Shown here: piece by piece, positions 1,165 to 2,592 of the stretch
Layout of the letters: each line of letters opens with the position of its first letter
Numbering within the stretch: the stretch's first letter is position 1
DNA from: a virus
Lineage: Duplodnaviria > Heunggongvirae > Uroviricota > Caudoviricetes
DNA: 10,237 bases
IMG/VR virus record: IMGVR_UViG_3300032665_000013
Direction: 5' to 3' (one strand)
Made by a program: the position numbers and the translations under genes
Notes under the pieces: generated by a model
Told to the model about the DNA's origin: nothing
Databases searched by the model: none
Seen by the model: the letters and a program-made list of their open reading frames with translations, nothing else

Positions 1165-1250
1165 TGGAGAACCGGCGGGGTAACGCTCCCACTTACGCCT
1201 TTCGAAACAGTTTTGCAGACTGTTGCAAGGACTTCCTCACGCACCGGCTC
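1165..1250 (-). tRNA. Atypical tRNA-Cys(GCA) with a tRNA-Sec-like 8/4 fold
   Basis: Acceptor GAGCCGGT/GCCGGTTC, D arm GTGAGG-AAGT-CCTTGC, anticodon arm AACAGT-CTGCAAA-ACTGTT, 13-nt variable region, T arm G(T)GGG-AGCGTTA-CCCC, U73, CCA. Confidence 0.8.
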
Positions 1251-1258
1251 TGATTATA

Positions 1259-1287
1259 TGTATATATTATACAAAACCCTATGTCAA
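1259..1287 (-). promoter_or_regulatory. Sigma70-like early promoter upstream of tRNA-Cys
   Basis: TTGACA (1287-1282), 17 nt, TATACA. Two TATAAT hexamers lie nearby at non-standard spacing. Confidence 0.55.
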
Positions 1288-2007: not shown

Positions 2008-2082
2008 TGGTGCATCTTGAAGGTTACGCTCCTTCTATTCCTGCGTGTCGGGCAGGTATGATAACTACTTCATCAAAGATGC
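2008..2082 (-). tRNA. tRNA-Val(GAC)
   Basis: Acceptor GCATCTT/AAGATGC, anticodon arm CCTGC-CCGACAC-GCAGG (C33 instead of U33), T arm GAAGG-AGCGTAA-CCTTC, A73, CCA. Confidence 0.85.
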
Positions 2083-2165: not shown

Positions 2166-2241
2166 TGGGGTGGTTAACGGGTAACGATCCCGTCACTTCG
2201 GCTTCACAGGCCGACATGTATCCATCAACACCTTAACCACC
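2166..2241 (-). tRNA. tRNA-His(GTG) with encoded G-1:C73
   Basis: Acceptor G-GTGGTTA/TAACCAC-C-CCA, anticodon arm TCGGC-CTGTGAA-GCCGA, T arm ACGGG-ATCGTTA-CCCGT. Confidence 0.92.
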
Positions 2242-2510: not shown

Positions 2511-2592
2511 TGGTGCCCTAGGAGGGACTCGAACCCCCATACTCCAATTACGGCGTTGATGACCGCTTAGAAGGCGGGACCGATACTAGGGC
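2511..2592 (-). tRNA. D-arm-less tRNA-like gene with Arg(TCT) anticodon
   Basis: Perfect acceptor GCCCTAG/CTAGGGC, only an 8-nt linker where the D arm should be, CCGC-CTTCTAA-GCGG, 24-nt variable region, T arm GGGGG-TTCGAGT-CCCTC, A73, CCA. Confidence 0.7.

What the first reader, a model, noticed from the sequence alone, without database searches (positions are those of the whole stretch)
1165..1250. Phage tRNA-Cys with selenocysteine-tRNA-like 8/4 architecture and a bulged T stem
Seen: the 7/5 fold leaves two T-stem mismatches. The alternative gives an 8-bp acceptor, a 6-bp D stem with 4-nt loop, a 6-bp anticodon stem, an enlarged variable region and a 4-bp T stem with one bulged U. The anticodon is GCA and base 73 is U. 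Known: a 6-bp D stem with 4-nt loop is a tRNA-Sec hallmark; GCA and U73 are CysRS determinants; bacterial selC*-type tRNA-Cys has a bulged 8/4 branch. Inference: this is a selC*-like tRNA in a phage, possibly a nuclease-resistant Cys supplier or a UGA-readthrough adaptor.
Basis: partly seen in the sequence, partly recalled or inferred. Interest (0 to 1): 0.75.

Follow-up and report, generated by a model that had tools for sequence, protein, structure and literature searches.

The report
Phage cysteine tRNA with selenocysteine-like shape
A lake phage's only detectable cysteine tRNA gene follows the rare long-acceptor, short-T-stem plan of selenocysteine-type tRNAs and also carries the base pair that normally marks alanine tRNAs; it is an unusual variant of a known kind, not a new kind of molecule.

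Summary
Window 1165-1250, minus strand, is an 86-nt tRNA gene in a phage tRNA island. It has anticodon GCA, U73 and an encoded CCA. It has a 6-bp D stem with a 4-nt loop, a 6-bp anticodon stem and a 13-nt variable region. The T stem pairs fully only if the acceptor is extended.

ARAGORN and the Rfam tRNA model miss it. Its only Rfam hit is tRNA-Sec, at 29.8 bits, below the cut-off of 47.

I add four points:
- The acceptor carries G3·U70, the main AlaRS determinant.
- The same phage has a second Sec-like tRNA, Ser-UGA, scoring 47.9 bits.
- Two Actinomycetota tRNA-array tRNA-Cys genes share its exact segment layout. Rfam calls both tRNA-Sec.

It is not a selC* member. The variable arm is short, and no Sec machinery appears among the genes called across the roughly 32 kb of this phage that I read. 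UGA reading is unsupported.

Most likely it is the phage's working Cys decoder, delivered by EF-Tu. No expression data and no close homologues with compensatory changes were found.

The scan noted the identical RNA before, on another record (e1-5386579).

The parts
1165..1250 (-). Whole tRNA gene: 86 nt, 5' end at 1250, discriminator U73 at 1168, encoded CCA at 1167-1165.
   Evidence: Sequence. Rfam RF01852 hit at 1168-1251, 29.8 bits. 100% identical in 10 metagenome contigs.
1242..1250 (-). Acceptor 5' strand GAGCCGG plus U8 and G9. The 8th and 9th pairs are optional. G3 (1248) pairs with U70 (1171).
   Evidence: All 7, 8 or 9 pairs are standard. G3.U70 is seen in none of 21 other tRNAs of the island.
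1225..1240 (-). D arm: 6-bp stem GUGAGG/CCUUGC with 4-nt loop AAGU (1231-1234).
   Evidence: In the diverged strain, 1227 A>G turns G13.U24 into G13-C24.
1206..1224 (-). Anticodon arm: 6-bp stem and loop CUGCAAA. Anticodon GCA lies at 1216-1214.
   Evidence: The identical 21-nt arm occurs in three other phage tRNA-Cys.
1193..1205 (-). Variable region, 13 nt (UCGAAAGGCGUAA), with at most a 2-bp stem.
   Evidence: The variant in L032 changes C to U here.
1177..1192 (-). T arm G(U)GGG-AGCGUUA-CCCC. The T loop has A54, G55 and U58 in place of U54, U55 and A58.
   Evidence: The same 5' strand and loop occur in this phage's tRNA-Pro(UGG), L094:11356-11430.
1168..1176 (-). Acceptor 3' strand GCCGGUUC plus discriminator U73 (1168).
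1251..1287 (-). 5' flank element TTGACAT-A-GGGTT ... TACATATAAT, ending 2 nt before base 1. In about 40 kb it is shared only with the 5' flank of the phage's Sec-like tRNA-Ser(UGA).
   Evidence: It is not a standard sigma-70 promoter by spacing.

Best explanation
This is a functional phage-encoded tRNA that decodes the cysteine codons UGU and UGC. It is built on a non-canonical cloverleaf.

Shown by sequence:
- The 12-bp acceptor/T branch is in an 8/4 or 9/3 register instead of 7/5.
- The D arm is tRNA-Sec/allo-tRNA-like (6 bp, 4-nt loop).
- The anticodon stem is 6 bp and the variable region is 13 nt.
- The gene carries U73, anticodon GCA and an encoded CCA.

Inferred:
- It is transcribed with the tRNA island and processed like its neighbours.
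- It is charged with cysteine by the host CysRS through U73 and GCA.
- It is carried by EF-Tu, because the branch is 12 bp like the 8/4 and 9/3 allo-tRNAs that work in E. coli.
- The tetraloop D loop AAGU and the T loop AGCGUUA form the elbow through G19-C56. This loop style is shared with this phage's tRNA-Pro.

The shape most likely arose inside phage tRNA arrays by remodelling an ordinary tRNA-Cys. It may make the tRNA a poor substrate for host tRNA-targeting nucleases. That last step is conjecture.
For: - Gene context. It sits on the same strand as a phage island of 30 or more tRNAs, in the gap between a PTH2 gene and the next ORF.
- End features. Nearly all island tRNAs encode CCA, and so does this one.
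- Uniqueness. It is the only Cys-anticodon stem-loop with a tRNA-like context in the roughly 32 kb of the phage that I read.
- Helices. All helices pair perfectly in the 8/4 or 9/3 register.
- Model fit. The canonical tRNA model and ARAGORN fail; the Sec model is the only Rfam hit.
- A sibling. The same phage has a Sec-like tRNA-Ser(UGA) with an 8-bp acceptor and a 6/4 D arm, scoring 47.9 bits against a cut-off of 47.
- House style. This phage's tRNA-Pro has a tetraloop D loop AAGG and the identical T loop AGCGUUA with a perfect 5-bp stem.
- Same layout elsewhere. Two unrelated Actinomycetota tRNA-Cys genes (L217:132-216 and L214:6382-6467) have the same segment lengths and U73-CCA. Their minimum-energy folds are clean 8/4 and 9/3 cloverleaves. 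ARAGORN calls them tRNA-Cys and Rfam calls them tRNA-Sec at 50.9 and 47.1 bits.
- Natural variants keep pairs. U24>C makes G13-C24 in a strain whose flanks are 3-9% diverged. C>U in the variable region of L032 keeps G.U or lies in a loop.
- Literature. U73 and GCA are the major CysRS determinants (PMC9976931). 8/4 and 9/3 tRNAs are processed, charged and delivered by EF-Tu in E. coli, and a Sec-like selC* tRNA-Cys is cysteinylated by CysRS (PMC5389517).
Against: - No homologue with the same loops was found in IMG/VR or in the metagenome collection. So there is no true compensatory covariation for this lineage.
- The two natural variants are one-sided changes only.
- The 8/4, 9/3 and mismatched 7/5 registers cannot be told apart by sequence.
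- Thermodynamic folding gives the T arm low probability, and the z-score against shuffles is only -1.18.
- G3.U70 could divert the tRNA to AlaRS.
- The T loop lacks U54, U55 and A58.
- The host and its CysRS are unknown.
Confidence: 0.6

Rival explanations
1. Alanine or dual Cys/Ala identity. AlaRS charges the tRNA through G3.U70, so UGU/UGC codons are read partly or wholly as Ala during infection.
For: - G3.U70 is present. It is unique among the 21 other ARAGORN-called tRNAs of the island and absent from all other tRNA-Cys compared.
- G3.U70 is the main bacterial Ala determinant (PMC9976931).
Against: - The minor Ala determinants are all missing: U73 in place of A73, A2-U71 in place of G2-C71, and C4-G69 in place of G4-C69.
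- The full CysRS set (U73 plus GCA) is present and should compete well.
- The phage's own dCMP deaminase has a zinc-binding deaminase domain (Pfam). Its sequence shows HAE and PCxxC motifs. From general knowledge these cysteines bind the zinc, so faithful Cys decoding is needed.
- G-C to G.U is the commonest neutral stem change.
Confidence: 0.15
2. Decaying or non-functional tRNA gene. It is a former 7/5 tRNA-Cys whose T stem lost two pairs and whose loops drifted.
For: - Both standard tRNA finders miss it.
- Compared with the phage's tRNA-Pro T arm, only positions 64 and 65 differ, and these break two pairs.
- The chance that two random replacements could pair with U8 and G9 is about 1 in 4 (my estimate).
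Against: - Every other helix is perfect, and U33, A37, U73 and CCA are intact.
- The odd loops are shared with other intact tRNAs of the phage.
- No other tRNA-Cys was found in the island.
- The gene is identical in 10 contigs from different samples. It is nearly unchanged in two diverged strains, and their changes keep pairs.
- The same layout recurs in intact genomic tRNA-Cys genes.
Confidence: 0.15
3. A tRNA-like RNA with a non-decoding role, for example a decoy for a host tRNA nuclease or tRNA-binding defence protein, or a primer or regulator.
For: - The island also encodes an Rnl1-like RNA ligase, an AAA_33 domain protein (possibly a kinase), a metallophosphatase and two peptidyl-tRNA hydrolase candidates. 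This suggests conflict over tRNAs.
- A private 5' flank element is shared only with the other Sec-like tRNA.
Against: Nothing specific points to such a role. The complete decoding and charging features (anticodon loop, U73, CCA) are most simply explained by translation.
Confidence: 0.07
4. A true selC*/tRNA-Sec-type adaptor that works with a SelB-like factor or reads UGA.
For: The body is Sec-like and gives an Rfam Sec hit. Bacterial selC* tRNA-Cys may use SelB* (PMC5389517).
Against: - The anticodon is GCA, not UCA.
- The branch is 12 bp, not 13 bp.
- The variable region is short.
- No selA, selB or selD appears among the Pfam hits of the genes called across the roughly 32 kb read.
- The score is far below the Sec cut-off.
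Confidence: 0.03

Closest known systems
selC* tRNA-Cys of anaerobic bacteria (Mukai et al. 2017, PMC5389517)
   Same: U73 and the GCA anticodon. A 6-bp anticodon stem, a 6/4 D arm and an 8-bp acceptor with a shortened T stem. A possible single bulge in the 5' T-stem strand. It turns up as a tRNA-Sec look-alike.
   Different: - selC* has a long variable arm: 20-31 nt in about 80 examples recovered here, against 13 nt.
- selC* has canonical UGGU and UUCGAUU loops.
- selC* lives in genomes with Sec machinery, often upstream of selB*. This tRNA is in a phage island with none seen.
- Here the bulged base would be U50, not A51a.
Allo-tRNAs and the (8/4) tRNA-Ser and tRNA-His of phages (Mukai et al. 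2017)
   Same: A 12-bp branch in an 8/4 or 9/3 register. A long D stem with a tetraloop. Some carry G3:U70 and U73. They occur in phage tRNA clusters. This phage itself has an 8/4-type tRNA-Ser(UGA).
   Different: Allo-tRNAs have a long variable arm and Ser (or Ala) identity. In the paper read here and in my full-text searches, phage examples are given only for Ser and His. This one has Cys identity marks and a short variable region.
Short-variable-arm 8/4 and 9/3 tRNA-Cys in Actinomycetota tRNA arrays
   Same: An identical segment layout: 8 or 9 acceptor pairs, 2 or 1 linker, D 6-4-6, anticodon arm 6-7-6, variable region 13-14 nt, T stem 4 or 3, then U73 and CCA. They are extra copies inside tRNA arrays.
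   Different: - Their loops are canonical (UGGU, UUCGAUU).
- They have C3-G70 and no bulge.
- They are GC-rich, and their stem sequences differ wholly from this one's.
- Rfam scores them above the Sec cut-off (50.9 and 47.1 bits, against 29.8 here).
- The class is rare: it was found in 1 of 401 sampled genomes of the phylum, and that one was the query genome.
Canonical phage tRNA-Cys (L033:4986-5067; L001:1038-1113)
   Same: - L033 has a near-identical acceptor 5' strand plus UG, and a similar start and end of the variable region.
- L001 has an identical anticodon arm, a D loop containing AAGU and the T loop AGCAUUA.
   Different: Both fold as 7/5 with 4-bp D stems.

Membership tests
Canonical tRNA (Rfam RF00005, ARAGORN) | 7/5 cloverleaf with a 3-4-bp D stem and a T-psi-C loop, scoring at or above 29 bits. 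| tested here: not met
   No RF00005 hit at gathering. None was listed at E<=10 in the 221-nt scan. ARAGORN finds nothing here.
tRNA-Sec (Rfam RF01852) | Score at or above the gathering cut-off of 47 bits. | tested here: not met
   29.8 bits. Ordinary tRNAs reach 25-37 bits on this model alone.
tRNA-Sec | 6-bp D stem with a 4-nt loop, and a 6-bp anticodon stem. | tested here: met
tRNA-Sec | 13-bp acceptor/T branch (8/5 in bacteria), UCA anticodon, G73 and a long variable arm. | tested here: not met
   12 bp, GCA, U73 and a 13-nt variable region.
selC* tRNA-Cys | U73 with a GCA or UCA anticodon. | tested here: met
selC* tRNA-Cys | 8-bp acceptor and 4-bp T stem, in some with one bulged base. | tested here: inconclusive
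   The 8/4 fold with a bulged U is possible at -25.5 kcal/mol. The 9/3 fold without a bulge is better at -27.2 kcal/mol. There are no covariation or probing data.
selC* tRNA-Cys | Long, Sec-like variable arm. | tested here: not met
   13 nt here, against 20-31 nt with stable stems in the selC*-type genes recovered from genomes.
selC* tRNA-Cys | The genome carries selA/B/C/D, often with selB* downstream. | tested here: not met
   No such Pfam families appear among the genes called across the roughly 32 kb of the phage read. The whole phage genome could not be read.
Allo-tRNA (8/4 or 9/3) | 12-bp branch as 8/4 or 9/3, with a long D stem and a tetraloop. | tested here: met
   Sequence allows both registers with all pairs standard. 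This rests on sequence only.
Allo-tRNA (8/4 or 9/3) | Long variable arm giving Ser identity. | tested here: not met
   13-nt variable region with a stem of at most 2 bp.
tRNA-Cys identity set (bacteria) | U73 plus G34-C35-A36. | tested here: met
   Sequence. Determinants as listed in PMC9976931. Charging itself is not testable here.
tRNA-Ala identity set (bacteria) | G3.U70 (the major determinant). | tested here: met
   G at 1248 pairs with U at 1171.
tRNA-Ala identity set (bacteria) | A73, G2-C71 and G4-C69 (the minor determinants). | tested here: not met
   U73, A2-U71 and C4-G69.

The most novel reading that the evidence does not exclude
The tRNA is a deliberate identity hybrid. It pairs a Cys anticodon with the AlaRS mark G3.U70 on an 8/4 or 9/3 body. 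During infection it would recode some UGU/UGC codons to alanine, or keep those codons readable when Cys-tRNA is attacked or scarce. It would belong to a mobile class of short-arm 8/4-9/3 tRNA-Cys shared between phage tRNA islands and actinobacterial tRNA arrays.
Probability: 0.12. Interest if true: 0.85.

Novelty: new variant of a known kind. Interest (0 to 1): 0.55.

Why it matters
In the paper that defined them, non-7/5 tRNAs in phages are described only for serine and histidine. Sec-like tRNA-Cys (selC*) is described only in anaerobic bacteria that have selenocysteine machinery.

This gene extends the 8/4-9/3 design to a Cys-anticodon tRNA in a T4-like lake phage with no Sec context. It combines that design with the alanine determinant G3.U70. 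It also shows that standard annotation misses such genes: ARAGORN and the Rfam tRNA model missed three tRNAs of this island.

The session further turned up the same short-arm layout in actinobacterial tRNA arrays. This hints at a wider, mobile class.

If the tRNA is active, it offers three things:
- A natural test case for how CysRS, AlaRS and EF-Tu cope with a remodelled tRNA core.
- A test of whether phages reshape tRNAs to escape tRNA-directed defences.
- A possible orthogonal scaffold for genetic-code engineering.

Tried and rejected
- Synteny route. Relatives of the downstream 177-aa protein in IMG/VR (18 loci, 53-68% identity) have no tRNA-Cys at the matching place. Where they have a tRNA-Cys, it is canonical.
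- PTH2 relatives. They drop from 98% to 66% identity, so no intermediate relatives exist to give covariation.
- Loop-and-spacing pattern scans. IMG/VR and the metagenome collection gave only chance, non-tRNA hits. The window's own contigs are not in those two collections.
- GenBank phages. Megablast of the window found nothing. Blastn of the tRNA matched only the 19-nt anticodon arm of the canonical Streptomyces-phage tRNA-Cys. tblastn of the downstream protein found nothing.
- RNA evidence. No RNA holder was listed, and none was listed for kind rna.
- Read laying. It used DNA contigs only, and 22 differences were not shown. The tRNA may therefore carry more variants than the one listed.
- Cluster look-up. 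It gave no further PTH2 variants.
- Sec-model survey of four related phage contigs. It found class-II Ser, Tyr and allo-type tRNAs but no Sec-like Cys.
- Promoter. No sigma-70 site with standard spacing lies upstream.
- selC* covariance model. I considered building one to score the window. I dropped it because the ends and registers of the recovered genes were too mixed for a clean alignment.
- The whole phage genome is not held.

Full report
**What is there**

The finding lies on the minus strand. Read from window 1250 down to 1165, it is an 86-nt tRNA-like gene. It sits in the gap between a PTH2-type peptidyl-tRNA hydrolase gene (1296-1721, Pfam PF01981) and a 176/177-aa ORF (614-1144/1147).

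It has the same orientation as six neighbouring tRNAs called by ARAGORN and a seventh found by Rfam. The window is clearly phage DNA. It carries two ADP-ribosyltransferases, a SegE-type GIY-YIG endonuclease and a dCMP deaminase.

ARAGORN does not call the gene. The Rfam tRNA model does not reach its cut-off. A permissive scan of 221 nt lists one family only: tRNA-Sec RF01852, at 29.8 bits, E 2.6e-4, cut-off 47.

**Anatomy**

The segments are as follows:
- Acceptor GAGCCGG/CCGGUUC, 7 perfect pairs including G3.U70.
- U8 and G9, which can pair with G65 and C64.
- D stem GUGAGG/CCUUGC (6 pairs) with loop AAGU.
- No base 26.
- Anticodon stem of 6 bp with loop CUGCAAA.
- A 13-nt variable region.
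- T arm GUGGG-AGCGUUA-CCCCG.
- U73 and an encoded CCA.

A 9/3 fold without any bulge is also possible and is better by nearest-neighbour energy. The values are -27.2 (9/3), -25.5 (8/4) and -23.7 kcal/mol (7/5 with mismatches).

I add three things: the 9/3 alternative, the small size of the variable region, and G3.U70.

**How much weight the Sec hit carries**

When the Sec model is run without competition from the tRNA model, ordinary tRNAs of related phages score 25-37 bits. So 29.8 bits alone means little.

The informative part is the contrast. Normal tRNAs of this island score 40-76 bits on the tRNA model. For this gene the permissive scan lists only the Sec model, and no tRNA-model match.

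**Is it a live gene?**

There is no RNA evidence: no RNA run was listed. The case rests on sequence and comparison.

1. Every helix other than the base of the T stem is perfect. U33, A37, U73 and CCA are in place. Nearly all tRNAs of the island encode CCA.

2. I walked along the phage through metagenome contigs and read about 32 kb (about 22 kb before the window's start plus the window itself). This held 30 or more tRNAs. No other Cys-anticodon stem-loop with a tRNA-like context was found.

3. The odd loops are a house style of this phage, not decay.
   - Its tRNA-Pro(UGG), L094:11356-11430, was also missed by both finders. It has a tetraloop D loop AAGG and the very same T-arm 5' strand and loop, GUGGG-AGCGUUA, closed by a perfect 5-bp stem.
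   - tRNA-Val has the T loop AGCGUAA. His, Glu(CUC), Phe and Ser(UGA) have A54.
   - D loops containing AG go with G55 and D loops containing GG go with U55. This held in the few cases I looked at. The sample is small and the reading is an inference.

4. The gene is 100% identical in ten contigs from different lake samples.
   - A 98%-PTH2 relative (L032) differs by one C>U in the variable region.
   - A strain with 3-9% diverged flanks (run X21) shows window 1227 A>G. This is U24>C, turning G13.U24 into G13-C24 inside the 6-bp D stem.
   - These are one-sided changes that keep pairs. They are not compensatory double changes. 22 differences of that call were not displayed.

**Support for the non-7/5 plan from other genes**

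The same phage carries a second Sec-like tRNA, L094:5732-5817. It has anticodon UGA (Ser), an 8-bp acceptor, linker AA, D arm CUGUAG-CGGC-CUACAG and U73. It scores 47.9 bits on RF01852. This is the (8/4) tRNA-Ser type that Mukai et al. 2017 reported in phages (PMC5389517).

The two Sec-like tRNAs also share a 5' flank element, TT[GA]ACAT(A)GGGTT ... TACATATA(TA)AT. It occurs nowhere else in about 40 kb.

I ran a genome-wide pattern scan for a D loop UGGU, 12 nt, CUGCAAA and a canonical T loop. It recovered about 80 selC*-type tRNA-Cys genes. They come from the phyla where selC* was described (Nitrospirota, Bacillota, Thermodesulfobacteria, delta-proteobacteria) and also from Cloacimonadota.

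The same scan recovered a different, short-armed kind in Actinomycetota: Actinoplanes sp. KI2 (L217:132-216) and a Jatrophihabitantaceae MAG (L214:6382-6467).
- They have the same segment lengths as the window's gene: 8 or 9 / 2 or 1 / 6-4-6 / 6-7-6 / 13-14 / 4 or 3 / U73 / CCA. Their stem sequences are entirely different.
- Their minimum-energy folds are clean 8/4 and 9/3 cloverleaves.
- ARAGORN calls them tRNA-Cys. Rfam calls them tRNA-Sec at 50.9 and 47.1 bits.
- They lie in tRNA arrays. In Actinoplanes they are extra to a canonical tRNA-Cys.
- They are rare. The pattern matched only the query genome among 401 sampled genomes of the phylum.

This shows that the layout is a recurring natural tRNA-Cys design. 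It does not show common descent with the phage gene.

**Origin**

- The acceptor 5' strand plus UG, and the ends of the variable region, resemble a canonical 7/5 tRNA-Cys of a related phage (L033:4986-5067).
- The anticodon arm is identical to that of other phage tRNA-Cys.
- The T arm differs from the phage's own tRNA-Pro T arm only at positions 64 and 65 (AC to CG). These are the two changes that break 49:65 and 50:64 and allow 8:65 and 9:64.

By my estimate, about one random replacement in four would do the same. This alone is therefore weak evidence. It gains weight from the matching 6/4 D arm and the missing base 26, which always accompany longer acceptors in Sec-type tRNAs.

I read it as local remodelling within phage tRNA arrays, not as capture of a bacterial selC*.

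**Function**

- The identity marks U73 and GCA are the major CysRS determinants (PMC9976931).
- A Sec-like selC* tRNA-Cys is cysteinylated by CysRS. 8/4 and 9/3 allo-tRNAs are processed, charged and delivered by EF-Tu in E. coli (PMC5389517).
- The branch here is 12 bp, as in those tRNAs, not the 13 bp of bacterial tRNA-Sec.

I therefore take it to be the phage's Cys decoder for UGU and UGC (confidence about 0.6). Reading of UGA has no support: G34 reads U or C, and no selB-like gene appears among the called genes.

G3.U70 is a real complication.
- It is the main AlaRS determinant.
- It is unique among 21 other tRNAs of the island.
- Allo-tRNAs with it insert Ala in E. coli.
- Against a strong Ala identity, A73, G2-C71 and G4-C69 are all missing.
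- The phage's dCMP deaminase has a zinc-binding deaminase domain (Pfam). Its sequence shows HAE and PCxxC motifs. From general knowledge these cysteines bind zinc, so the phage needs faithful Cys decoding.

The island also encodes an Rnl1-like RNA ligase, an AAA_33 domain protein (possibly a kinase), a metallophosphatase and peptidyl-tRNA hydrolase candidates. This fits a phage under pressure from tRNA-directed defences. The idea that the odd shape evades a nuclease remains conjecture.

**Comparison and novelty**

It works like an 8/4 or 9/3 tRNA of the allo/selC* kind. It fails the selC* membership tests on the long variable arm and on the Sec context. It fails the allo-tRNA test on the long arm and Ser identity.

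The closest layout match is the short-arm actinobacterial tRNA-Cys found here. My full-text searches found no paper describing a Sec-like tRNA-Cys in a phage.

One other phage contig (L250:3086-3175) has a tRNA-Cys with a 6/4 D arm and an irregular acceptor.

I reached both points independently before seeing that note.

**Verdict**

It is a real, very probably functional gene and a new variant of a known kind. Its register (8/4 or 9/3), its expression and its amino acid remain untested.

Noticed in passing
L094:5732-5817 (same phage, about 10 kb before the window's start): A second Sec-like tRNA with anticodon UGA (Ser): 8-bp acceptor, 6/4 D arm, T loop AUCGACA, U73. It scores 47.9 bits on RF01852, just over the cut-off, and ARAGORN misses it. 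It is probably the 'Ser(TGA) tRNA with a 13-nt T-loop' of note e1-1858971.
   Followed up: partly
L094:11356-11430 (same phage): A tRNA-Pro(UGG) missed by both ARAGORN and Rfam. It has a 4-bp D stem with tetraloop AAGG and the T arm GUGGG-AGCGUUA-CCCAC, a near copy of the Cys T arm.
   Followed up: partly
window 1251-1287 (-) and L094:5692-5731: A shared 5' flank element, TT[GA]ACAT(A)GGGTT...TACATATA(TA)AT. In about 40 kb it occurs only in front of the two Sec-like tRNAs. The -35-like and -10-like hexamers are 22-23 nt apart, which is not sigma-70 spacing. It may be a phage-specific promoter or processing signal.
   Followed up: partly
window 2011-2082 (-), 2169-2240 (-); L092 and L094: Many tRNAs of this phage have A54 instead of U54: Val, His, Glu-CUC, Phe, Ser-UGA, Cys, Pro and Lys-CUU. 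Val, Cys and Pro also have G55. tRNA-Val(GAC) has C33 instead of the near-universal U33 (loop CCGACAC).
   Followed up: no
L092:10374-12647; L094:3090-4861: The tRNA island holds a T4 Rnl1-like RNA ligase (called as two ORFs of 136 and 270 aa), a metallophosphatase, a DNA-ligase-like gene, an AAA_33 domain gene (possibly a kinase) and Gad2-domain genes. This looks like a tRNA repair and anti-defence neighbourhood.
   Followed up: no
L217:132-216, L214:6382-6467, L161, L121 (Actinomycetota genomes): Short-variable-arm 8/4 or 9/3 tRNA-Cys(GCA) genes with a Sec-like D arm, inside tRNA arrays. In Actinoplanes they are extra to a canonical tRNA-Cys. Rfam scores them as tRNA-Sec above its cut-off. 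The phylum is not among those the selC* paper lists. Y-RNA-like hits below the cut-off lie beside the L214 array (L277:1952-2204).
   Followed up: partly
L001:946-1031 and L001:1038-1113 (IMG/VR phage, 61.9 kb): A tRNA-Tyr(GUA) with a 6-bp D stem and tetraloop (RF01852 43.5 bits), followed by a 7/5 tRNA-Cys with the T loop AGCAUUA. ARAGORN misses both.
   Followed up: partly
L250:3086-3175 (IMG/VR contig of 206.8 kb): Another phage tRNA-Cys(GCA) with a 6/4 D arm, a 6-bp anticodon stem, a 17-nt variable region, a 3-bp T stem and an irregular acceptor with a bulge.
   Followed up: no
L033:11928-12389 and L033:1549-1742: A related phage contig carries a GOLLD RNA (204 bits) and a group I intron (56 bits) inside its tRNA island.
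   Followed up: no
window 2514-2592 (-): Rfam calls a tRNA (32.3 bits) with only 4 nt in place of the D arm, anticodon UCU and a long variable region. Another finding covers it (e1-5399528).
   Followed up: no
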